Positions 34,907 to 55,696 of a stretch of DNA of 64,000 bases are shown in pieces. Numbering within the stretch: the first letter of the stretch is position 1; every line of letters starts with the position of its first letter. Source of the DNA: a virus; the IMG/VR virus record IMGVR_UViG_3300045988_005108, positions 30,118 through 94,117 of that record. The stretch is one strand, 5' to 3'. A model generated the notes under the pieces. The model was not told where the DNA came from. It did no database searches and saw only the letters and a program-made list of their open reading frames with translations. The position numbers and the translations under genes are program-made.

Positions 34907-35170
34907 TTAATATATTAAAATAACTTTGTTATTATTACTTAATCTAAATACATTGTACTTGGTAATATAATAATCAATTGCAGTTGAATAGAAATTAAGA
35001 GTTATTTGTATTGGTAATTGGGATAGTGTTTTAATAAACAAATCAATCTTACTTTTCTCTTTACCTTTTTCCAATAAGAACTCTTCTAACATCTGTAACT
35101 GACTATTCATATTAAATGGTGTAATACCATATATTTGATTACCAAGTTCTACTGTCTTCTCTCTATCCAT
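34907..35170 (-). CDS. Hypothetical protein (87 aa)
   Basis: ATG overlaps the stop of ATPase exon 2 (ATGGATAG). Confidence 0.5.
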   Translation of the reverse strand: MDREKTVELGNQIYGITPFNMNSQLQMLEEFLLEKGKEKSKIDLFIKTLSQLPIQITLNFYSTAIDYYITKYNVFRLSNNNKVILIY

Positions 35171-35379
35171 AAATCTCCCTCAATTTGTCTACTACTATAG
35201 ACAAATCATTAGGAATCTCATCAGGAAGGTCATCCAATGCACCCAGACTGTCTTTAGCAGGATATTCTCCATCAAACTCCTTGACAAAGTGCTTGATAGG
35301 TCTCTTGTTTTCTGCATCATATCCTACCTTGCCAAAGAGGATAATATCAAACTTACCTTCTGGTGTGATGTAATCGTCC
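35163..35379 (-). CDS. AAA_24/Sak4-like P-loop ATPase, exon 2 (predicted)
   Basis: Start-less open frame ...(V)DDYITPEGKFDIILFGKVGYDAENKRPIKHFVKEFDGEYPAKDSLGALDDLPDEIPNDLSIVVDKLREIYG*; joins exon 1 in frame at the P1/P10-predicted splice site. Confidence 0.65.
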
Positions 35380-36272
35380 CATTTTATGAAACATAACTTA
35401 TGTAGGTAATCATTCTACTATGTTTCCTTAATATTTCTATTAAGATTTGACTATATCTTCAATAGATTTTCTCTTAGCCCACCAAAGTTTAATAGATTCA
35501 CTTCTTTTTCTTTTGGATTCCTCACTTTGGGAAATACCCTTATGAGATTCTGATAGCTTCTTTCTTGTAGACTCTGAAGCCCTTCTTCCCTTATTAGCTA
35601 AACCTATTTTACTTTTATGTTCTTCACTAAGAGGTACACCTTTAAGCCTTTTACTCATAGCCTTCCTAAACTCTATAGAATGCTTAGTTCCAATCTTAGA
35701 CTGTCTAATCTTTTCTATAGCTTCAGAATTATGAATAAATCCTGTACATCCATCACCCCCAGCAGTAAGATTAATTAAATTGGGAAACTGTGAAATCCAA
35801 TATTGCTCCCTTTCCTGCCAAATACCACTTTGACAGGTTTCCAAGAGTTCTATTATAGGTTTCTTATTCTCCTTTAAGATATTAAGAATCCAATTGCTTA
35901 AATGCTTATTATGCTTATTTCCTTTAGCATTGGCAATATGGTTTCCCAATCTCCTACTTAGACTTCTTACAGTCTTACCTACATATCTTACTTCTAAGGT
36001 ATCAGGATGCTTTAATGTGTAAATGTGTACTTCTCTATTGTCTACCATTTCCAAATATAATTGATTACTTTATAAATGTACTCCCCCACAACAGGGGATA
36101 GTCGATGAACCTTGAACTTGTAAATAAGCCCCTTGGCTGCTGATTGCCCATTCCTCCATCACTAAGAATACAACTAATTTTCAAACATTCAAGCTTATTG
36201 TTACCAATTACTTTGTAGTTTAGTTGTCTTTAGGGTGTTCCAGCAATTAGATAGATAATGGCAGACTATGCT
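35380..36272 (-). mobile_element. Group I intron (893 nt) carrying a GIY-YIG endonuclease ORF, inserted in the AAA-ATPase gene
   Basis: 5' exon GAUGGU pairs with intron GCCAUU (splice-site U:G wobble); adjacent GUCU pairs with 3' exon GGAC (P10); intron ends in G; about 210-nt GC-richer core (36055-36272) precedes the ORF. Confidence 0.7.
35440..36054 (-). CDS. GIY-YIG homing endonuclease (intron-encoded) with NUMOD3-like repeats
   Basis: HIYTLKHPDTLEVRYVGKT (GIY-YIG variant), conserved R/H/N downstream, C-terminal repeats SEEHKSKIGLANKG / SESHKGISQSEESKRKRSES. Confidence 0.85.
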   Translation of the reverse strand: MEMVDNREVHIYTLKHPDTLEVRYVGKTVRSLSRRLGNHIANAKGNKHNKHLSNWILNILKENKKPIIELLETCQSGIWQEREQYWISQFPNLINLTAGGDGCTGFIHNSEAIEKIRQSKIGTKHSIEFRKAMSKRLKGVPLSEEHKSKIGLANKGRRASESTRKKLSESHKGISQSEESKRKRSESIKLWWAKRKSIEDIVKS

Positions 36273-36826
36273 ACCATCTTTCCAGTGGTCTTGAACTTAT
36301 AGGAAATAGAGTCACCATTCTTATCCTTATACTCCTCATAGTGGGCACAGCAGATGATATTCTTATCCTCAGGAAGTCCCTTGAAAGCATCAAAGATAAG
36401 ACCCATTCCATAGCCAATTTGCTTAGGAGTATCCCATCCACCTTTCATGGCATTTGCCATATAGAAATCCTGTGCAAGATAATTGAAATCATCAATTACA
36501 ATGTTCTTGAAAGGAGACTTCTTCAGCATATCTATGAGTTCTGCTATCACTGCAAACCTATCAAGACCTGTAAGACTATCTACCTGTACCCTGTTACCTG
36601 TACCAAGGGCATTTGTATTTGTAAGTTTCTGTGTAGGCTTACCTACATTCTCTATTCCAATGCTACCCTCAATTAGTTTGAAGTTAGGGTTAGGAACACC
36701 CCTACCAATACACTGGATAACATAAGTTTCCTTTGGGTCAAGCCCCTTAATACCTAACTTCTCCCTACCACAGTAGGAAGTAGTCTTTCCAAAACCACTT
36801 TTTGCAAGAACTAAAATCTTTGCCAT
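36273..36826 (-). CDS. AAA_24/Sak4-like P-loop ATPase, exon 1
   Basis: MAKILVLAKSGFGKTTS (Walker A), NIVIDDFNYL (Walker B); the track ORF runs 2 codons into the intron before a TAG and is short for this family. Confidence 0.7.
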
Positions 36827-44186: not shown

Positions 44187-44217
44187 AAAAAAGAAATTAT
44201 TATTAAAATACTTATTG

Positions 44218-44597
44218 TGGAGCATAGGGGACTCGAACCCCTGTCTTACTAATCTTTAATAAAAGAATTACACATGCTTACTACTTTTTAATGTGGTCAG
44301 TTACCCACTGAGCTAACTGAATTTACAGCATTTCCACCACCTTATTTTATTGTCCATAAACAAGGAAAAAGTTGAGTTACCTTCTGCGAGACCACAGCCC
44401 ATTAATGCTCTTAAAGTCGGACCCTCAGCCTTAGTCTTTAATCAGGCTTTGCACCTTTCTGTTTCCAAGTAAGTGCTACTCAGCCTATTTAGGCAGCAAC
44501 TCTATAAGAAGTATTGCCAGTTATTGTTTTGATGTCTTTCCATCAGTCTTTGCATGTTCTCTTACCAAATAATTAGCAATCAAAACCAAAATGCCCC
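44218..44597 (-). ncRNA. ssrA: tmRNA (SsrA-like), tag peptide GNTSYRVAA
   Basis: 5' GGGGCAT pairs with 3' ATGCTCC (G3:U70), canonical T-arm AGGGG-TTCGAGT-CCCCT, no anticodon arm; 5' GGGGCATTTTGGTTTTGATTGC resembles the tmRNA 5' consensus; mini-ORF GGC AAT ACT TCT TAT AGA GTT GCT GCC TAA at 44518-44489 with the stop in a hairpin loop. Confidence 0.8.
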
Positions 44598-45290: not shown

Positions 45291-45529
45291 ATTGTGAGTT
45301 TTAAGAATTTTCTGTTTTTGGATTCATTTCTTATTGAAAGAATGTCCTAACAAAGTCAAATATTGTTTCCTATTGAAACATCATTATTAAAGTCACGTAG
45401 CTTCCTCTTTATATCCCCACATTTGAAGCAGTTGCATTTATTAAGTGGTGATAGCTTACCTATCAGCATCACATTTTGCTTTCTTTAGGTCCCATGCTTA
45501 GTAGAAATAGTGAGCTAAATCCACCATTG

Positions 45530-45603
45530 TATCTCCAGTGAGACTCGAACTCACAACCCACAGCTTAGAAGGCTGTTGCTCTATCCAATTGAGCCATGGA
45601 GAC
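45530..45603 (-). tRNA. tRNA-Arg(TCT)
   Basis: Hand-folded cloverleaf GTCTCCA-TG-GCTC..GAGC-A-ACAGC-CTTCTAA-GCTGT-GGGTT-GTGAG-TTCGAGT-CTCAC-TGGAGAT. Confidence 0.8.
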
Positions 45604-45703
45604 ATGCAAAAGGAAACCTGTATATCACATACCAGTTTCCTATAATAACCATTGATTTACTTACCTAAAAACAATCAAATTACCTTTACAAATAACACCT
45701 TAG

Positions 45704-45775
45704 TACTCCCAACAAGACTCGAACTTGTGTCTACTCTTTAGGAGAGAGTTATTCTATCCACTGAACTATGGGAGC
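45704..45775 (-). tRNA. tRNA-Arg(CCT)
   Basis: Cloverleaf GCTCCCA...ACTCT-CTCCTAA-AGAGT...ACAAG-TTCGAGT-CTTGT-TGGGAGT. Confidence 0.8.
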
Positions 45776-48891: not shown

Positions 48892-48920
48892 TTGATTGTT
48901 TGTTTATGGATTGATAAAAG

Positions 48921-48991
48921 GGAGGTATGATAGACTTGAACTATCATTATAACTGCAATTGAGTTATGTACTAACATTGTACTAATACCTC
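48921..48991 (-). tRNA. tRNA-like element with a non-canonical anticodon loop (CAATTGC; A33, anticodon ATT)
   Basis: GAGGTAT-TA-GTAC-AATGTTA-GTAC-A-TAACT-CAATTGC-AGTTA-TAAT-GATAG-TTCAAGT-CTATC-ATACCTC: perfect cloverleaf geometry but lacks U33. Confidence 0.4.
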
Positions 48992-51210: not shown

Positions 51211-51283
51211 TGCCCCATAGTATAGTTGGTTATTACACGGGATTTTGGCTCCTGTAACATAAGTTCGAGTCTTATTGGGGTAA
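51211..51283 (+). tRNA. tRNA-Gln(TTG)
   Basis: TGCCCCA...CGGGA-TTTTGGC-TCCTG...ATAAG-TTCGAGT-CTTAT-TGGGGTA. Confidence 0.8.
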
Positions 51284-51299
51284 CAATAGAAAGGTAAAT

Positions 51300-51371
51300 G
51301 CCCTCTTAGTTCAATGGACAGAATAAGAGACTTCTAATCTTTTGATATAGGTTCGATTCCTATAGGGGGTA
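51300..51371 (+). tRNA. tRNA-Arg(TCT)
   Basis: GCCCTCT...AGAGA-CTTCTAA-TCTTT...ATAGG-TTCGATT-CCTAT-AGGGGGT. Confidence 0.8.
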
Positions 51372-51385
51372 CTAAATAAATTAAT

Positions 51386-51748
51386 ATGAAAACATGCAGG
51401 ATATGTAATAGGAATTTAGATGATATACTATTCCCTAAAAATGGAAATGCTTTAAGGAATGTATGTAAAGAGTGCCAAACAAAAAGAGTAAGAGCAAAGC
51501 AACTGGAGTTTGTAAATTGGCTACAATCTTTGAAAACAGAATGTTCTATATGTGGGTATAAAAGATGTAAGGAGGCTTTAGAATGGCATCATACTGGAGG
51601 AGATAAGGAGTTTAATGTAAGTAAATTTGTCAATAGTAATTATCCATCACTAAAGAATAAAGAAAAAGTACTTACTGAGTTAAGTAAGTGTGTTCTAGTA
51701 TGTGCTAACTGCCACAGAGAGATACATAAAAATGTTGGGTTAGAATAG
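51386..51748 (+). CDS. HNH endonuclease inserted in the tRNA array
   Basis: Cys pairs CRIC/CKEC and CSIC; WHHTGGDKEFNV ... CANCHREIH (H-N-H); the last 15 nt overlap the 5' end of tRNA-Glu. Confidence 0.75.
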   Translation: MKTCRICNRNLDDILFPKNGNALRNVCKECQTKRVRAKQLEFVNWLQSLKTECSICGYKRCKEALEWHHTGGDKEFNVSKFVNSNYPSLKNKEKVLTELSKCVLVCANCHREIHKNVGLE

Positions 51749-51806
51749 GTGGCTAGTTCGTGAGATTTTCAATCTCAAGAGATGGGTTCGAGTCCCATAC
51801 CCAATA
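51734..51806 (+). tRNA. tRNA-Glu(TTC)
   Basis: GTTGGGT...TGAGA-TTTTCAA-TCTCA...ATGGG-TTCGAGT-CCCAT-ACCCAAT. Confidence 0.8.
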
Positions 51807-51812
51807 CAATAT

Positions 51813-51884
51813 AGAGCTATCTACTAAGGGATAGGTAACTGCCCTCTCAAGGCAGAAATTTGGGTTCAATTCCCAATAGCTCTA
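51813..51884 (+). tRNA. tRNA-Glu(CTC)
   Basis: AGAGCTA...CTGCC-CTCTCAA-GGCAG...TTGGG-TTCAATT-CCCAA-TAGCTCT. Confidence 0.8.
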
Positions 51885-51890
51885 CAACTT

Positions 51891-51963
51891 AGGGTGTGTA
51901 GCATAGTGGTTAATGTGCCTGACTGTCAATCAGGAGATTGGAGTTCAATTCTCCCACATCCTG
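51891..51963 (+). tRNA. tRNA-Asp(GTC)
   Basis: Anticodon arm CCTGA-CTGTCAA-TCAGG; acceptor helix AGGGTGTG/CACATCCT reads as 8 bp with a 4-bp T-stem GGAG-TTCAATT-CTCC. Confidence 0.7.
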
Positions 51964-52017
51964 CTAATCCACTTTTAATCTACTGAAGTCCTATCCTACA
52001 GAGGTAGGATAGGCAAT

Positions 52018-52101
52018 GGAGAGTAAACCTAAAAGGTTTAGGAACTGTCTGCTAAACAGATTGTACCAACATGGTATGTGTTTCAAGTACACTGCTCTCC
52101 G
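52018..52101 (+). tRNA. tRNA-Ser(GCT), class II
   Basis: GGAGAGT...loop CTGCTAA; long variable arm TACCA-ACA-TGGTA; T-loop TTCAAGT; acceptor 3' GCTCTCC. Confidence 0.75.
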
Positions 52102-52107
52102 CAATAT

Positions 52108-52179
52108 ATGGGTGTAATTCAGAGGTAGAATGCTGGCTTTGGGAGCCAGTTGTCCTTGGTTCAAATCCAAGTACCCATA
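52108..52179 (+). tRNA. tRNA-Pro(TGG)
   Basis: ATGGGTG...CTGGC-TTTGGGA-GCCAG...CTTGG-TTCAAAT-CCAAG-TACCCAT. Confidence 0.8.
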
Positions 52180-52182
52180 CTT

Positions 52183-52256
52183 GGGCTTTGTAGTGTAATC
52201 AGGTTAGCACAAGACATTTGCAATGTTTTAGAGGAGTTCAAATCTCACAAGGTCCA
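52183..52256 (+). tRNA. tRNA-Ala(TGC)
   Basis: GGGCTTT/AAGGTCC acceptor with G3:U70; AGACA-TTTGCAA-TGTTT; weak T-stem. Confidence 0.7.
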
Positions 52257-52362
52257 CACGATGTTTTCATGTTTTCATAATGTTGAGCTTTTGCTTGAAC
52301 CCTCTTTTGGGTAGTTAGAGGTTAAAGAAACTACCTATCTACTCTCTATCTAGAGAGTATTT

Positions 52363-52434
52363 GGGTCTTTAGTTCAAAGGTTAGAACAAGGGGCTGTTAA
52401 CCCTTAGATGTAAGTTCGAGTCTTACAGGTCCCG
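52363..52434 (+). tRNA. tRNA-Asn(GTT)
   Basis: GGGTCTT...AGGGG-CTGTTAA-CCCTT...GTAAG-TTCGAGT-CTTAC-AGGTCCC. Confidence 0.8.
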
Positions 52435-52543
52435 CAAAAACTTTTGCAAGGAGTTTAGTCAAGTAGCTTGCAATACTTGATGCCATCATTTCTGAAAGTT
52501 CTCTGAGTGCAATAAGGAGAAGTAATCAATGATTTGATGTTTT

Positions 52544-52616
52544 AGCAGGTTAGAGAAGTAGTAATCTTGCCCCACTCATAGTGGGGAGACCAGTGGTGCA
52601 AATCCACTACCTGCAA
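52544..52616 (+). tRNA. tRNA-Met/Ile2(CAT), copy 1
   Basis: AGCAGGT...CCCCA-CTCATAG-TGGGG...AGTGG-TGCAAAT-CCACT-ACCTGCA; A1:A72 mismatch. Confidence 0.7.
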
Positions 52617-52625
52617 CTAAGTAAT

Positions 52626-52698
52626 TGGGAAGTAGCTCAATTGGTAGAGCACTGGTCTCCAAAATCAGCGGTTGTGGGTTCAATTCCTACCTTCTCAG
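52626..52698 (+). tRNA. tRNA-Trp(CCA)
   Basis: TGGGAAG-TA-GCTC..GAGC-A-CTGGT-CTCCAAA-ATCAG...GTGGG-TTCAATT-CCTAC-CTTCTCA. Confidence 0.8.
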
Positions 52699-52703
52699 CA
52701 TAT

Positions 52704-52780
52704 TGGGATATATCTCCTCTGTCTGATAAGCAGTTGAAAGAGTAGTTGGTTACAGGTGAGTTCAATTCTCACTATCCCAA
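52704..52780 (+). tRNA. tRNA-like gene, anticodon undetermined (aberrant D/anticodon region)
   Basis: Perfect acceptor TGGGATA/TATCCCA and T-arm GTGAG-TTCAATT-CTCAC, but the 45 nt between do not fold into canonical D and anticodon arms. Confidence 0.4.
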
Positions 52781-52800
52781 CATTAGTCAAGAAGAGTAAA

Positions 52801-52872
52801 GTTGATGTACTTTAATGGTAGAAGGCTGCTCTCATAAGGCAGTAGTTGAAAGTTCGAGTCTTTCCATCAGCA
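52801..52872 (+). tRNA. tRNA-Met/Ile2(CAT), copy 2
   Basis: GTTGATG...CTGCT-CTCATAA-GGCAG...GAAAG-TTCGAGT-CTTTC-CATCAGC. Confidence 0.8.
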
Positions 52873-52874
52873 CT

Positions 52875-52948
52875 GTGTTAGTAGCTCAGTTAGGTAGAGC
52901 AGAGGATTGTGGCTCCTTATGGCATGGGTTCAAATCCCATCTAACACC
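52875..52948 (+). tRNA. tRNA-His(GTG)
   Basis: GTGTTAG-TA-GCTC..GAGC-A-GAGGA-TTGTGGC-TCCTT...ATGGG-TTCAAAT-CCCAT-CTAACAC. Confidence 0.8.
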
Positions 52949-52955
52949 CTAATAT

Positions 52956-53029
52956 ACTCACATAGCTCAATTGGTCAGAGCAGGAATCTTATACATTCAA
53001 GGTTAGGGGTTCAAGTCCCTTTGTGAGTA
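52956..53029 (+). tRNA. tRNA-Ile(TAT)
   Basis: ACTCACA-TA-GCTC..GAGC-A-GGAAT-CTTATAC-ATTCA...AGGGG-TTCAAGT-CCCTT-TGTGAGT. Confidence 0.75.
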
Positions 53030-53033
53030 CTAT

Positions 53034-53108
53034 CTTGGAGTACCTGAGTGGTCTAAGGGCACAGACTGCAAATCTGATGATTCGTGGGTTCAAATCCCAC
53101 CTCCAAGT
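53034..53108 (+). tRNA. tRNA-Cys(GCA)
   Basis: CTTGGAG...ACAGA-CTGCAAA-TCTGA...GTGGG-TTCAAAT-CCCAC-CTCCAAG. Confidence 0.75.
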
Positions 53109-53110
53109 CT

Positions 53111-53362
53111 ATGTGTTATATAGATAAACTTATAAAGAATAATACAGGAGTTTCTTCAAAGAACTTCTTCTTAGTGGCAGTTACCTTAATAGGTTTAATC
53201 CTACTATTAGTTCCTGCTGTACTTCTTATAATAGAAATATGTTATAATCATACTATACAGACAGACCTTAATGGTCTTGCTGCTTATATAGGTGCTGTTG
53301 CTGGAGTATTTGCATCAGCAGGTATTACTAAAGCATGGTCTGAAAAGTATGAAAAGAAATAA
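53111..53362 (+). CDS. Small 2-TM membrane protein (83 aa from ATG) inside the tRNA array
   Basis: Track ORF begins with GTG inside tRNA-Cys; ATG at 53111 is 3 nt after the tRNA; helices FFLVAVTLIGLILLLVPAVLLII and LAAYIGAVAGVFASAGI. Confidence 0.5.
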   Translation: MCYIDKLIKNNTGVSSKNFFLVAVTLIGLILLLVPAVLLIIEICYNHTIQTDLNGLAAYIGAVAGVFASAGITKAWSEKYEKK

Positions 53363-53363
53363 T

Positions 53364-53437
53364 GCTCCTATAGCTGAATTGGTTAAAGCAACAGTCTCTT
53401 AAACTGTGGACTCAAGGTTCAAGTCCTTGTGGGAGCA
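53364..53437 (+). tRNA. tRNA-Lys(CTT)
   Basis: GCTCCTA...ACAGT-CTCTTAA-ACTGT...CAAGG-TTCAAGT-CCTTG-TGGGAGC. Confidence 0.8.
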
Positions 53438-53459
53438 CAACCTCAACCTTGGCAAATAC

Positions 53460-53530
53460 TCCCCTAAAGCATAGTGGCGATGCTCAAGACTTTTAATCCT
53501 GAGAGTAAGGTTCAATTCCTTATGGGGGAA
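53460..53530 (+). tRNA. tRNA-Lys(TTT)
   Basis: TCCCCTA...CAAGA-CTTTTAA-TCCTG...TAAGG-TTCAATT-CCTTA-TGGGGGA. Confidence 0.75.
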
Positions 53531-53565
53531 CATAACATATTATTAACTCTAAATTTTTAATTGTT

Positions 53566-53673
53566 ATGAAAAAGGTTATTTCATTAATTAAGAGAGGTGC
53601 TAAGGCATACTTTAGACAAGCTGCTAAGACCTATGCTTGGACACCTACAGGAACTATTCCAGTTGGGATATAG
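53566..53673 (+). CDS. Possible 35-aa basic peptide ORF in the tRNA array
   Basis: MKKVISLIKRGAKAYFRQAAKTYAWTPTGTIPVGI; only support is ATG..TAG in a tRNA-free spacer. Confidence 0.25.
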   Translation: MKKVISLIKRGAKAYFRQAAKTYAWTPTGTIPVGI

Positions 53674-53708
53674 TTCCTTTGATGTGGAGTGAGTAATAAA
53701 TATTATAT

Positions 53709-53791
53709 GGGGTAGCTTTAATGTGGTGAATTAGTGTGGACTGTAAATCCACTGCCTCAGGCTATTTAAGGTTCAATTCCTTTCTGCCCCA
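53709..53791 (+). tRNA. tRNA-Tyr(GTA), class II
   Basis: GGGGTAG...GTGGA-CTGTAAA-TCCAC, variable arm GCCT-CA-GGC, TAAGG-TTCAATT-CCTTT-CTGCCCC. Confidence 0.75.
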
Positions 53792-53859
53792 CTTCAATAG
53801 AAATTTTTGTCCTTGACTTATGGAAAGTGATGTGGGTAGAGACACAAATAAGTCATTAT

Positions 53860-53934
53860 GGGTGTTGGGCAGGTATGGTTACATTGCAGAGGACTGAAAA
53901 TCCTTAGAACAAAGTTCGATTCTTTGAACACCCA
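53860..53934 (+). tRNA. tRNA-Phe(GAA)
   Basis: GGGTGTT...GAGGA-CTGAAAA-TCCTT...CAAAG-TTCGATT-CTTTG-AACACCC. Confidence 0.8.
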
Positions 53935-54198
53935 CAGTAGTGCTTGCATGTTTAACCAAGGTATGTGAGCACTTAAAAAGAACTAACAAAGCTATGAGTT
54001 CTAGATTATATGTAGCAACGTAACTCTTAGGGTTCTTAATAAGGTAAAACTAGCCCCTTTTGGATGTCGTAGAATCCATGTGAATGCCTTGCACAGAGTT
54101 CATTAAGGCTATAAGTAACAGATTAGTTAAGCAGAAGTCCTGCCCCTGCCTAGTTTATAAAAGGGTGTGTAATGAAGATTACACTAATCTAGGCTTAT

Positions 54199-54280
54199 AC
54201 CCTCTTGATGGAATGGTAGACATAAAGGTCTTAGAAGCCTTGACCATAATGGTGTAAGAGTTCGAGTCTCTTAGGGGGTA
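54199..54280 (+). tRNA. tRNA-Leu(TAG), class II
   Basis: ACCCTCT...AAGGT-CTTAGAA-GCCTT, variable arm ACCAT-AA-TGGT, AAGAG-TTCGAGT-CTCTT-AGGGGGT. Confidence 0.8.
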
Positions 54281-54313
54281 CTAAAAAATAATTTGAAAAT
54301 AATTAGGAAAATA

Positions 54314-54345
54314 TTTGGTTAATTGAAATATTTTACTTAACTTTG
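54314..54345 (+). promoter_or_regulatory. Bacteroidetes-type promoter (TTTG-N20-TAacTTTG)
   Basis: TTTGGTTAATTGAAATATTTTACTTAACTTTGCA, the -7 box ending 20 nt before the ATG at 54366. Confidence 0.6.
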
Positions 54346-54365
54346 CACCATCAAAATAAGAGAAT

Positions 54366-54812
54366 ATGTTTGAAGAAGATAACCTATTTACTCCAATGGA
54401 ATCAAGCAGAAGTACAGAAGTATCTGGTTCTCAGCTCTTTATTAACTTCTTGAATCAGCTTGAGGGTTGGAAGACTAAGTGTAAGAATCTGCATTGGGCA
54501 GCACCTAAGAAGAATATCCATGTATATCTTGATGAGTTCCTTGATATATTGTCAGACTATCAAGATGGTCTTGCAGAGGGATACATGGGAATACTTGGTA
54601 AGATGCAGCCTAATGTAATCAAAGGAACTTCAAGTGATGCACTGAATGCTTTTGACTTTATAAGTGAAGTTAAGTCTGCTACTATTGCATTCTATGATAA
54701 GATTCCTCAAGAGACTATTTATAAAGGTATAACATCTGAATGTGAGACCTTTATTCAGAATATCAATAAGTATGACTACTTATTCCACTTATGTGATATA
54801 AGACCTTACTAA
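54366..54812 (+). CDS. Dps/ferritin-like four-helix protein (tentative)
   Basis: KNLHWAAPKKNIHVYLDEFLDILSDYQDGLAEGYMGILGK parallels the Dps pattern aHWN..G..F..vHe.lD.f....D..AER...LGG; 148 aa. Confidence 0.45.
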   Translation: MFEEDNLFTPMESSRSTEVSGSQLFINFLNQLEGWKTKCKNLHWAAPKKNIHVYLDEFLDILSDYQDGLAEGYMGILGKMQPNVIKGTSSDALNAFDFISEVKSATIAFYDKIPQETIYKGITSECETFIQNINKYDYLFHLCDIRPY

Positions 54813-55279
54813 TGACAAAACTGAGAAGTAGAGAAGTATATGAAGAGGCTATAAGAAACAGTCTTAGTATAGCACAGGTATGTAGATACCTGCATATAAA
54901 GCCTATAGGAGGGAATTACAGAACTATACATCAAGCAATTGATTTATACAATATAGATACTTCCCACTTTACAGGTCAGGGATGGAACTCTGGTGAAAGA
55001 TATTCTCCAGTAGTTAAGAAATTCCCTCTTAGTAGGATTCTTGTAAATCCTTCAAGATATAACTCAAACAATCTAAAGAGAAGATTGCTTTCAGAAAATA
55101 TAAAAGAACATAGATGTGAGAGATGTGGATTGTCCGAATGGCAAGGACAAAAGATACCTTTAGAGCTGCATCACAAAGATGGTAATAATAGTAATAATGA
55201 AATAGGTAATTTACAGCTCTTATGTCCTAATTGTCATGCTCTGACAGACAATTACAGAGGGAAAAATAAAATGGTCTAA
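54812..55279 (+). CDS. HNH endonuclease inserted in the tRNA array
   Basis: CERCG...ELHHKDGNNSNNEIGNLQLLCPNCHALT (H-N-H with two CxxC pairs); stop codon lies inside the acceptor stem of tRNA-Leu(TAA). Confidence 0.8.
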   Translation: MTKLRSREVYEEAIRNSLSIAQVCRYLHIKPIGGNYRTIHQAIDLYNIDTSHFTGQGWNSGERYSPVVKKFPLSRILVNPSRYNSNNLKRRLLSENIKEHRCERCGLSEWQGQKIPLELHHKDGNNSNNEIGNLQLLCPNCHALTDNYRGKNKMV

Positions 55280-55356
55280 TGGTGGAACTGGAATACACAA
55301 GGGACTTAAAATCCCTCGCCCTTTAGGGATTGAGGGTTCAAATCCCTCTTAGACTA
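55273..55356 (+). tRNA. tRNA-Leu(TAA), class II
   Basis: GGTCTAA...AGGGA-CTTAAAA-TCCCT, variable arm CCCT-TT-AGGG, GAGGG-TTCAAAT-CCCTC-TTAGACT. Confidence 0.8.
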
Positions 55357-55360
55357 CAAT

Positions 55361-55434
55361 GCCTCCTTAGTGTTAATGGTTTAGCAAGCCTGTCTTGTAA
55401 ACAGGAAGAGAGGGTTCAAATCCTTCAGGAGGCT
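55361..55434 (+). tRNA. tRNA-Thr(TGT)
   Basis: GCCTCCT...CCTGT-CTTGTAA-ACAGG...GAGGG-TTCAAAT-CCTTC-AGGAGGC. Confidence 0.8.
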
Positions 55435-55441
55435 CTATAAT

Positions 55442-55514
55442 GTAGGTATAGTGTTAGTGGTTAGCATATGACATTGCCAATGTCAAGGGGTCAGTTCAAA
55501 TCTGATTATCTACT
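55442..55514 (+). tRNA. tRNA-Gly(GCC)
   Basis: GTAGGTA...TGACA-TTGCCAA-TGTCA...GTCAG-TTCAAAT-CTGAT-TATCTAC. Confidence 0.8.
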
Positions 55515-55519
55515 CAAAT

Positions 55520-55591
55520 GCAGGTATAGTATAAAGGTTAGTATGTAACACTTCCAATGTTAATGTGTGGGTTCAATTCCCACTATCTGCT
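55520..55591 (+). tRNA. tRNA-Gly(TCC)
   Basis: GCAGGTA...TAACA-CTTCCAA-TGTTA...GTGGG-TTCAATT-CCCAC-TATCTGC. Confidence 0.8.
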
Positions 55592-55609
55592 CAAATTATG
55601 TATATATAT

Positions 55610-55682
55610 CGTGGGGTGATAGCAATGGTAGCTAACAAGGCTCATAACCTTGAGGTTGAGAGTTCGAGTCTCTCCCCCGCAA
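55610..55682 (+). tRNA. tRNA-Met(CAT), copy 3, initiator-like (C1:A72 mismatch)
   Basis: CGTGGGG...TAGC-AATGGTA-GCTA-A-CAAGG-CTCATAA-CCTTG...GAGAG-TTCGAGT-CTCTC-CCCCGCA; one extra nt at positions 8-9. Confidence 0.7.
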
Positions 55683-55696
55683 CTAATTTAGATAAT

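What the first reader, a model, noticed from the sequence alone, without database searches (positions are those of the whole stretch)
35380..36272. Group I intron with GIY-YIG ORF splitting the AAA/Sak4-like ATPase gene; splice site predicted from P1/P10
The ATPase ORF (36826 to 36266) stops early at ...KFKTTGKMVA*. About 0.9 kb downstream, a start-less frame (open from about 35416) encodes a plausible C-terminus (DDYITPEGKFDIILFGKVGYD...REIYG*). A GIY-YIG ORF lies in between. On the RNA, exon-1 GAUGGU (36278-36273) pairs with intron GCCAUU (36262-36257), giving the hallmark U:G wobble at the splice site. The four nucleotides 5' of that guide sequence (GUCU) pair with GGAC at the start of the proposed exon 2, forming P10. 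The intron ends in G (35380). Splicing there restores the frame as ...KFKTTGKM-V-DDYITPEG..., a 256-aa protein of normal size for this family. A GC-richer segment of about 210 nt (36055-36272, for example CCCC-TGTTGT-GGGGG at 36079-36105) precedes the endonuclease ORF. This resembles compact phage introns whose ORF sits in a 3' extension.
Basis: partly seen in the sequence, partly recalled or inferred. Interest (0 to 1): 0.7.

Follow-up and report, generated by a model that had tools for sequence, protein, structure and literature searches.

The report
Mobile group I intron in crAss-phage ATPase
A gut crAss-like phage has its Sak4-like recombination ATPase gene split by an 893-base group I intron of the type that splices itself out, carrying its own GIY-YIG homing endonuclease; this is a well-supported but ordinary example of a known kind of mobile element.

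Summary
Exon 1 is 36826-36273 (-), the intron is 36272-35380 (893 nt) and exon 2 is 35379-35163.

- **Splice junction.** Joining the exons gives a 256-aa protein that aligns without a gap to more than 100 uninterrupted 256-aa homologs. The DNA junction ATGGT|GGAC matches intron-less ATGGTGGATGAC in the two closest phages.
- **Rfam.** RF00028 finds both halves of a group I core (38.3 and 29.1 bits). Both are below the gathering score because a 202-aa GIY-YIG/NUMOD3 ORF splits the core.
- **Structure.** Seventeen IMG/VR contigs carry the same intron at the same codon. On 14 distinct copies, my P1, P10, P3-P9.1 model has 95% of cells paired, against 35-47% when the partners are slid. Thirty-six pairs show compensatory changes, including P10 pairing with exon 2.
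- **Mobility.** The intron is 94-100% identical between phages whose distal exon 1 is only 58-64% identical. The ORF has dN/dS of 0.07-0.28. This indicates active homing.
- **One correction.** The ORF lies in the P8 loop and overlaps core helices at both ends. It is not in a 3' extension.

Group I introns in crAss-like phages, including in this ATPase gene (ATP_43b), are already reported. This is a new member of a known kind, of low to moderate interest. Splicing itself is inferred, not shown.

The parts
36273..36826 (-). Exon 1 of the Sak4-like / AAA_24 (ATP_43b) ATPase gene, codons 1-184 plus GT of codon 185
   Evidence: ORF. The spliced protein matches PHROG 2872 'Sak4-like ssDNA annealing protein' at 1.7e-25. 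It is 86-91% identical over 100% of its length to 256-aa homologs.
35380..36272 (-). Group I intron, 893 nt (intron position n = window 36273 - n)
   Evidence: RF00028 partial hits. Identical to the intron in L003, and 16 further contigs carry related copies at the same site. Covariation.
36273..36278 (-). P1 5' strand (exon GAUGGU). U36273 forms the U:G wobble at the 5' splice site
   Evidence: UG 14/14, GC 14/14, GC 14/14.
36257..36262 (-). Internal guide sequence GCCAUU (P1 3' strand)
36263..36266 (-). P10 guide GUCU. It pairs with GGAC at 35379-35376, the first 4 nt of exon 2
   Evidence: helix 2: 100% paired. The outer pair is AU 8, GC 4, GU 2.
36266..36268 (-). In-frame stop (UAG), 5-7 nt into the intron. 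It ends exon-1 translation before the ribozyme core
   Evidence: A stop (TAG or TAA) is at the same position in all 14 variants.
36250..36255 (-). P3 5' strand UCUAUC. It pairs with GGUAGA at 36046-36041
   Evidence: model positions 49-158. helix 3: invariant and 100% paired.
36138..36245 (-). P4-P5 domain. P4 is 36245-36240 with 36143-36138. P5 is CCC/GGG. P5a is 36227-36220 with 36177-36170. P5b has a GNRA loop at 36213-36191. P5c is tentative, at 36169-36150
   Evidence: helices 4-11: P5a has 5 pairs and P5b 6 pairs with compensatory change; P5c is weak at 75%. About 80% identical to Twort nrdE-I2, Listeria LPJP1 and the cr118_1 intron.
36109..36137 (-). P6/P6a hairpin
   Evidence: helices 12-13: 4 pairs with compensatory change.
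36098..36103 (-). P7 5' strand GACUAU. It pairs with AUAGUC at 35454-35449 and forms a pseudoknot with P3
   Evidence: both halves match the RF00028 consensus, with GAAGAUAUAGUC exact. helix 14: invariant and 100% paired.
36083..36097 (-). P7.1 hairpin CCCCU-GUUGU-GGGGG, the peripheral element typical of subgroup IA
   Evidence: helix 15: 3 of 5 pairs show CG to UA compensatory changes; 100% paired.
36047..36082 (-). A/U-rich segment between P7.1 and P3'. Likely P7.2, but the pairing is not resolved
   Evidence: the single-sequence and consensus folds disagree. I did not model it.
36034..36040 (-). P8 5' strand CAAUAGA. It pairs with UCUAUUG at 35466-35460. The ORF fills the P8 loop
   Evidence: helix 16: 98% paired, 2 pairs with compensatory change.
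35440..36048 (-). Homing endonuclease ORF, 202 aa from the conserved AUG. It has an N-terminal GIY-YIG domain and about 4 NUMOD3-like repeats. The start codon overlaps P3'. The last 9 codons and the stop encode P8', J8/7, P7' and the start of P9
   Evidence: Intact in 16 of 17 contigs, with dN/dS of 0.07-0.28 against the window's copy.
35427..35444 (-). P9 hairpin CUUAAUA-GAAA-UAUUAAG
   Evidence: model positions 233-253. helix 17: 6 of 7 pairs with compensatory change; 100% paired.
35388..35426 (-). P9.1 extended hairpin: an 8-bp stem plus an inner 4-bp stem
   Evidence: helices 18-19: 8 pairs with compensatory change.
35380..35380 (-). Terminal guanosine (omega-G), the last intron nucleotide
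   Evidence: G precedes GGAY in all 17 copies.
35163..35379 (-). Exon 2: the last base of codon 185, codons 186-256 and the stop. It has no start codon of its own

Best explanation
This is a mobile subgroup-IA (IA2-like) group I intron of 893 nt, inserted in the most conserved motif (TGKMV|DDY) of the Sak4-like ATPase gene of a Steigviridae-type crAss-like phage.

**Shown here**
- The gene is interrupted exactly between the 2nd and 3rd base of codon 185.
- The intervening RNA has a complete group I core: P1 with U:G, P3, P4-P6, P7, P8, P9 and a terminal G. It also has P7.1, an extended P5a-b, P9.1 and P10.
- The helices are kept by compensatory changes across 14 distinct copies.
- The P8 loop holds an intact GIY-YIG endonuclease gene under purifying selection.
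- The element is much more similar between phage lineages than the host gene is.

**Inferred**
- After transcription the RNA folds and an external guanosine attacks after U36273.
- The freed exon 1, held by P1 and P10, attacks after G35380. This ligates the exons to give the mRNA for the 256-aa ATPase.
- The endonuclease cuts intron-less alleles near the insertion site in co-infecting phages. Repair then copies the intron in (homing).
- The ORF overlaps P3'/P8 at its start and P8'/P7'/P9 at its end. Its translation and ribozyme folding probably exclude each other on a single transcript.
For: - **Junction.** The spliced protein is 256 aa, 86-91% identical at 100% coverage to more than 100 uninterrupted homologs. 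GKMVDDYITPEG is invariant and ungapped. The DNA junction equals ATGGTGGATGAC of the intron-less bajarodcaudo virus 1 and cr85_1.
- **Core.** RF00028 hits are 38.3 bits (E 7e-8, P3-P7-P3') and 29.1 bits (E 4e-5, P7'-P9).
- **Controls.** An ORF-less relative in the cr118_1 capsid gene scores 94.7 bits full-length. The Twort nrdE intron 2, which carries an ORF and is reported in the literature to self-splice, is not detected at all. So sub-threshold scores are expected for a core split by an ORF.
- **Covariation.** Of 95 pairs, 95.0% of cells are paired against 35-47% when slid. Thirty-six pairs change on both sides, against 6-10 when slid and 12.8 when shuffled (0 of 500 shuffles reach 36).
- **Same site.** Seventeen IMG/VR contigs carry it at the same position.
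- **Mobility.** The 5' part of the intron is 94-96% identical and the 3' part 83-100%, while distal exon 1 is 58-64% identical (L006-L009, L016). The intron is 100% identical to L003 although the exons differ.
- **Endonuclease.** Pfam GIY-YIG above cutoff, PHROG homing endonuclease, dN/dS 0.07-0.28.
- **Kinship.** The P3-P6 region is about 80% identical to introns in Twort nrdE, phiR1-37 and Listeria LPJP1.
Against: - No RNA data exist, so splicing and endonuclease activity are inferred.
- Neither Rfam hit reaches the gathering score of 50 bits.
- P7.2 could not be drawn with confidence, and P5c is weakly supported (75% paired).
- One copy (L017) has a weakened P1 and a frameshifted endonuclease, so some copies are decaying.
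- The 14 sequences are related, so counts of compensatory cells overstate the number of independent events.
Confidence: 0.9

Rival explanations
1. The intron is real in ancestry but no longer splices in this phage. The ATPase gene would then be a pseudogene, or would yield only the 186-aa N-terminal fragment.
For: Rfam scores are below the gathering score. One relative (L017) shows decay of P1 and of the ORF.
Against: - All core helices in the window copy are intact and match the conserved consensus.
- Exon 2 stays 97-100% identical in protein to close relatives and is in frame. The gene is a conserved replication-block gene in crAss-like phages.
- The window's intron is identical to that of another contig whose exons differ. 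This points to recent transfer rather than decay.
Confidence: 0.05
2. A free-standing GIY-YIG endonuclease gene has inserted into the ATPase gene ('intron-less homing'). The two halves would be translated separately and reassemble, with no RNA splicing.
For: Phage genes split by free-standing endonuclease genes are known from the literature (my own knowledge; the review read mentions intron-less homing).
Against: - Exon 2 has no ATG, GTG or TTG start in frame.
- The 240 nt before the ORF and the 87 nt at and after its end form a covarying group I core.
- The boundaries obey the U:G and terminal-G rules and restore the codon exactly.
Confidence: 0.02
3. The element splices in vivo but is not truly self-splicing. 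It would need a phage or host protein (a maturase or chaperone), or ongoing translation, to fold.
For: - The element is very A/U-rich (34% GC).
- P1 is short (6 bp) and P7.2 is poorly defined.
- T4 introns are reported to depend on translation in vivo (titles of references 65-66 cited in the review).
Against: Close relatives of the core (the Twort nrdE introns) are reported to self-splice in vitro (title of Landthaler et al. 2002, cited in the review; the paper itself could not be read). GIY-YIG endonucleases are not known as maturases (my own knowledge).
Confidence: 0.1

Closest known systems
Staphylococcus phage Twort nrdE intron 2 (encodes the HNH endonuclease I-TwoI) and related IA2-type phage introns (phiR1-37, Listeria LPJP1, Bacillus and Aeromonas phages)
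   Same: The P3-P4-P5-P5a/b-P4'-P6 region is about 79-84% identical in nucleotides over about 85-90 nt. The layout is the same: a 5' core half of roughly 200 nt, then an endonuclease ORF, then a short 3' core half, all inside an essential DNA-metabolism gene.
   Different: The host gene, host phylum and endonuclease family differ (HNH in Twort, GIY-YIG here). The regions outside P3-P6 do not align. The Twort introns are reported to self-splice, but I could not read the paper; this one has not been tested.
Group I introns of crAss-like phages reported by Yutin et al. 2021 (PMC7886860), including insertions in ATP_43b (AAA-domain ATPase), MCP, PolB and primase of the Delta group
   Same: Same phage order and the same kind of element. 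ATP_43b is the AAA ATPase of the replication block, which I take to be the gene family interrupted here. The ORF-less intron that splits the cr118_1 (Suoliviridae) capsid gene has a core 75% identical to this one and scores 94.7 bits on RF00028.
   Different: That paper found introns through endonuclease domains. In the passages I read it gives no splice sites or RNA structures. It describes them for the Delta and Zeta groups, whereas this phage and all 17 carriers are closest to Steigviridae. No record in the 50,697-phage GenBank set carries this intron at this site.
Phage T4 td intron with I-TevI (GIY-YIG)
   Same: Both are group I introns in a phage DNA-metabolism gene that encode a modular GIY-YIG endonuclease with an N-terminal catalytic domain and a C-terminal DNA-binding region. 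In both, the ORF reaches into core sequence, and the review says this goes with tightly controlled ORF expression. Both target a highly conserved part of the host gene.
   Different: No detectable sequence similarity to any solved structure, I-TevI included. The ORF is in the P8 loop here; in td it is in the P6 region (my own knowledge). The cleavage position is unknown here.

Membership tests
Group I intron (Rfam RF00028) | P1 helix between the end of exon 1 and an internal guide sequence, with a U:G wobble at the 5' splice site | tested here: met
   GAUGGU/GCCAUU. The three pairs next to the splice site are invariant in 14 copies, including UG 14/14.
Group I intron (Rfam RF00028) | Terminal guanosine at the 3' end of the intron | tested here: met
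   G35380. A G precedes exon 2 in all 17 copies.
Group I intron (Rfam RF00028) | Conserved catalytic core: P3-P8 pseudoknotted with P7, P4-P6, and the J8/7 and P7 sequences | tested here: met
   Both core halves align to RF00028, with GAAGAUAUAGUC exact. P3, P4 and P7 are invariant and 95-100% paired. P5a, P5b, P6a, P8 and P9 covary.
Group I intron (Rfam RF00028) | Score at or above the Rfam gathering threshold (50 bits) | tested here: not met
   38.3 and 29.1 bits for the two halves. The cause is the 600-nt ORF inside P8. The ORF-less relative scores 94.7 bits, and the ORF-containing Twort nrdE-I2, reported to self-splice, is not detected at all. This reflects a limit of the model rather than a missing feature.
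Group I intron (Rfam RF00028) | Removal restores an uninterrupted host gene | tested here: met
   The protein and DNA junctions match intron-less alleles exactly.
Group I intron (Rfam RF00028) | Guanosine-dependent self-splicing | not testable with these tools
   Needs in vitro transcription and splicing, or RNA from infected cells.
Subgroup IA (IA2-like) | Extra helices P7.1 and P7.2 between P7 and P3' | tested here: inconclusive
   P7.1 is present and covaries (helix 15). The 36-nt A/U-rich stretch where P7.2 should be gave no consistent fold. Nucleotide similarity is to phage introns of this type. The assignment to a subgroup rests on my recollection of the classification.
GIY-YIG homing endonuclease (Pfam PF01541) | GIY-YIG catalytic domain above the Pfam cutoff, with the motif residues present | tested here: met
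   30.4 bits against a cutoff of 22.6. IY, YVG, the RLG arginine, the H of KHIANAKG/NHIANAKG, the RE of WQERE/WEDRE/WEERE, and the N of NL.N.T are invariant across 14 copies.
GIY-YIG homing endonuclease (Pfam PF01541) | Site-specific cleavage of the intron-less allele and homing | not testable with these tools
   The evidence is indirect. The intron is 94-100% identical across phages whose exons are 58-64% identical, and the ORF is under purifying selection.
Sak4-like / AAA_24 ATPase (host gene) | Profile match over both exons | tested here: met
   PHROG 2872 matches at 1.7e-25 over residues 3-255. Pfam AAA_24 reaches only 17.2 bits against a cutoff of 27. The homolog in NC_055883 is annotated 'Sak4-like ssDNA annealing protein'.

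The most novel reading that the evidence does not exclude
The intron may be more than a neutral parasite. It may act as an expression switch for the phage's Sak4-like recombination ATPase. The endonuclease ORF overlaps P3'/P8 at its start and P8'/J8-7/P7'/P9 at its end, so ribosomes translating the endonuclease would unfold the ribozyme. Each transcript would then yield either the endonuclease or a functional ATPase mRNA. That would tie the supply of a recombination protein to the very double-strand-break repair that homing needs.
Probability: 0.1. Interest if true: 0.5.

Novelty: new member of a known kind. Interest (0 to 1): 0.25.

Why it matters
- **Annotation.** Gene callers report a truncated 186-aa ATPase, an 'orphan' endonuclease and an uncalled C-terminal fragment. 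The correct product is a 256-aa protein. The closest reference genomes lack the intron, so homology transfer will not fix this.
- **A reusable model.** The analysis gives exact splice sites and a covariation-supported secondary structure for an intron lineage that has spread through several Steigviridae lineages. The lineage also has relatives in the capsid gene of a Suoliviridae phage and in Flavobacterium phages. This could seed a covariance model that finds ORF-containing crAss introns which Rfam misses.
- **A marker.** The pattern of a near-identical intron in diverged hosts marks co-infection and recombination among gut crAss-like phages.

None of this changes what is known about how group I introns work.

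Tried and rejected
- **Rfam at gathering threshold, whole window.** No intron was called. A permissive whole-window scan also dropped it. Only the scan restricted to 35100-36500 showed the two halves.
- **Alternative junction GTA|GAC** (intron 36271-35379). It gives the same protein but was rejected. Exon 1 would end in A rather than the U of a U:G pair, and intron-less alleles have GTG.
- **Other copies in the window.** nhmmer profiles of both intron halves and tblastn with the endonuclease found none.
- **Similarity of the endonuclease to solved structures.** Nothing meaningful; the best E-value was 0.25, to unrelated proteins.
- **P7.2.** The single-sequence and consensus folds disagree, so it was left unmodelled. 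P5c is kept as tentative (75% paired) and is absent in L013 and L015.
- **Co-conversion signature.** Exon sequence near the insertion site is more similar than distal exon sequence. The same is true for the intron-less L001 and L002, so this reflects motif conservation and cannot be read as co-conversion.
- **Reading Landthaler et al. 2002 (PMC113830).** The paper is not held.
- **Intein, group II intron or assembly artefact.** None fits. The ORF is not in frame with the exons, nothing matches a group II model here, and the element recurs in 17 contigs.

Full report
**What the window is.** The region lies in the replication block of a crAss-like phage. The nearest GenBank records over the ATPase gene are bajarodcaudo virus 1 (PQ006092, 86.7% nt) and crAssphage cr85_1 (NC_055883; Steigviridae, Asinivirinae, Kahnovirus oralis; 83.4% nt). 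In both, a DnaB-like helicase gene is followed by an uninterrupted 771-nt gene. That gene is annotated 'AAA domain protein' in one and 'Sak4-like ssDNA annealing protein' in the other.

**Checking the observation.**
- On the minus strand, an ORF from 36826 stops at 36266 with ...KFKTTGKMVA*.
- A 204-aa ORF (36054..35440; conserved AUG at 36048) matches Pfam GIY-YIG above its cutoff and NUMOD3 weakly. It also matches PHROG 314 'homing endonuclease'.
- Downstream, a frame without any ATG, GTG or TTG start encodes DDYITPEGK...REIYG*.
- Two details are loose. The hairpin CCCCUGUUGUGGGGG is at 36097-36083. The 'GC-richer' character of the 5' segment is marginal, at about 36-37.5% against 33-34% in the ORF and 38-41% in the exons.

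**The junction is right.**
- Joining 36273 to 35379 gives a 256-aa protein.
- Against 5.8 billion proteins it finds 1192 relatives. The top 120 are full-length proteins of 238-258 aa, most of them 256 or 242 aa. The closest are 256 aa, 86-91% identical and cover 100% of the query.
- In an alignment with 12 of them the junction region TGKMVDDYITPEGK has no gap and is almost invariant.
- At the DNA level the two intron-less phages read ATGGT|GGATGAC where the window reads ATGGT + GGACGAT.
- The only other junction that gives the same protein (GTA|GAC) would put an A before the splice site and create a GTA codon. The intron-less alleles have GTG.

**The RNA is a group I intron.**
- Rfam at gathering threshold calls nothing here. 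A scan limited to 35100-36500 finds RF00028 twice on the minus strand.
  - 36256-36040: 38.3 bits, E 7e-8, model positions 49-158. This is P3, P4, P5, P6, the 5' strand of P7 and P3'.
  - 35543-35427: 29.1 bits, E 4e-5, including an exact GAAGAUAUAGUC (J8/7 and P7') and the P9 hairpin.
- The 600-nt ORF between the halves explains the sub-threshold scores. An ORF-less relative that splits the capsid gene of cr118_1 scores 94.7 bits over the whole model. The Twort nrdE intron 2, which carries an ORF and is reported to self-splice, is not detected at all under the same conditions.

**Comparative evidence.**
- A scan of IMG/VR with the endonuclease protein returned 17 contigs with close relatives (69-100% identical). 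In all 17 the element sits at the same codon of the same gene.
- Every copy begins after ATGGT, has a stop codon 5-7 nt into the intron, and ends in G before GGAY.
- I aligned the 14 distinct copies with MAFFT, without reference to structure. I then wrote a structure from the window sequence: P1, P10, P3, P4, P5, P5a, P5b, P5c, P6, P6a, P7, P7.1, P8, P9 and P9.1.
- Of 1296 cells, 95.0% form standard pairs, against 35-47% when the 3' partners are slid by 1-3 columns.
- Thirty-six of 95 pairs show changes on both sides, against 6-10 when slid and 12.8 ± 2.3 in shuffles. None of 500 shuffles reaches 36.
- The catalytic helices P3 and P7 never vary, and P4 hardly does. The peripheral helices carry the compensatory changes: P5a, P5b (always with a GNRA loop), P6a, P7.1, P8, P9 and P9.1.
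- P10 also covaries with the first bases of exon 2: GUCU/GGAC, GUCU/GGAU and AUCU/GGAU occur, but never AUCU/GGAC.
- P5c is weak (75% paired) and missing in two copies. P7.2 could not be settled.
- The sequences are related, so the cell counts overstate independent events. Even so, several helices show three or four different pair types.

The ORF is not in a 3' extension. It fills the loop of P8 (CAAUAGA 36040-36034 with UCUAUUG 35466-35460).
- Its AUG (36048-36046) overlaps P3' (36046-41), and codons 2-5 encode P3' and the 5' strand of P8.
- Its last nine codons (SIEDIVKS and the stop) encode P8', J8/7, P7' and the first bases of P9.
- The final 87 nt of the intron are therefore indispensable core, not a tail.
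- No P2 is present. P7.1 sits between P7 and P3', and the core is about 80% identical to Twort nrdE-I2, phiR1-37, Listeria LPJP1 and similar phage introns. I therefore place it in subgroup IA, IA2-like. The subgroup label rests partly on my recollection of the classification.

**Mobility.**
- Between the window and L006-L009 or L016, the distal part of exon 1 is 58-64% identical. The 5' half of the intron is 94-96% identical, the ORF 84-87% and the 3' part 83-100%.
- Against L003 the intron is 100% identical although the exons differ (91-99%).
- The carriers are nearest to different Steigviridae lineages. L006 resembles Kehishuvirus or cr106_1 at about 68-70%. L013 is 91% identical to the cultured phages DAC15 and DAC17, which lack the intron. 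L014 is only about 66% identical to any record.
- The ORF is intact in 16 of 17 contigs, keeps the GIY-YIG motif residues, and has dN/dS of 0.07-0.28 against the window's copy.
- This is the pattern expected of an actively homing intron that targets a conserved motif.
- Exon sequence near the insertion site is more conserved than distal sequence. The same holds for intron-less alleles, so I do not read it as co-conversion.

**Mechanism.**
- Shown: the interruption, the core, its conservation by covariation, the exact restoration of the gene, and the endonuclease gene under selection.
- Inferred from the established chemistry of group I introns (review PMC3984707): guanosine attack after U36273, exon ligation after G35380 guided by P1 and P10, and endonuclease-driven homing into intron-less alleles during co-infection.
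- The conserved stop codon 5-7 nt into the intron should keep exon-1 ribosomes out of the core.
- The ORF overlaps core helices at both ends. This suggests that endonuclease translation and splicing compete on a single transcript, as the review describes for introns whose ORFs extend into core sequence.

**Comparison with what is known.**
- Group I introns with GIY-YIG, HNH and other endonucleases are classic in phages.
- For crAss-like phages, Yutin et al. 2021 reported a high density of group I introns. [quoted passage not shown] ATP_43b is the AAA-domain ATPase of the replication block.
- The crAss001 genome figure also marks introns.
- What is added here is a Steigviridae-type carrier, exact splice sites, a covariation-supported structure, and evidence of lateral spread.
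- None of the 50,697 GenBank phage records carries this intron at this site.
- It is therefore a new member of a known kind.

**Verdict.** It is an ordinary mobile group I intron, useful for correcting annotation and for building better intron models for gut phages. It is not surprising to a specialist. Interest is 0.25.

Noticed in passing
window 44217-44597 (-): A tmRNA (ssrA) gene in the phage genome. Rfam RF00023 scores 69.8 bits (E 4e-25), and ARAGORN predicts the tag peptide GNTSYRVAA*. A 91%-identical sequence in crAssphage cr106_1 is already annotated as 'transfer-messenger RNA, SsrA'. Similar unannotated sequences are in cr128_1 and Kehishuvirus 'tikkala'.
   Followed up: partly
window 45529-45775 (-), 48920-48991 (-), 51211-55683 (+): Twenty-six tRNA genes, most of them in one dense array on the + strand. 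They include three tRNA-Met(CAT), tRNA-Ile(TAT) and an odd tRNA-Asn(ATT). No suppressor anticodon was seen.
   Followed up: no
L013:1172-2131 and the same place in L015 (IMG/VR contigs 91% identical to Bacteroides phage DAC15): These two contigs carry a second insertion of about 960 nt in the same ATPase gene, between residues 132 and 133. It holds a 263-aa ORF with two LAGLIDADG-like motifs (LGYIVADGSI, GFIDGDGSI). Rfam gives no group I hit there at E <= 0.01, so its nature is unsettled; it may be a second intron of another type.
   Followed up: partly
L032:2455-2931 (crAssphage cr118_1, NC_055872, Suoliviridae): The major head protein is annotated as two separate CDSs. The gap contains an ORF-less group I intron (RF00028 94.7 bits, full length) whose core is 75% identical to the window's intron. 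The record has no intron annotation.
   Followed up: partly
L034:2812-3004 (Listeria phage LPJP1, MZ422438): A group II intron domain hit (RF02004, 94.1 bits) lies about 1.2 kb downstream of the group I-like core that matched the window's intron.
   Followed up: no
L017:2262-3178 (IMG/VR contig 3300020112_000312): This copy looks as if it is decaying. Its guide sequence reads GCCUGU instead of GCCAUU, which weakens P1. A 1-nt deletion shifts the frame of the C-terminal third of the endonuclease.
   Followed up: no
window 36269-36264 (-), intron nt 4-9: The hexamer AUAGUC in the P1 loop repeats the P7' strand (35454-35449). It could in principle compete for the P7 5' strand. It overlaps the conserved stop codon and the P10 guide.
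   Followed up: no
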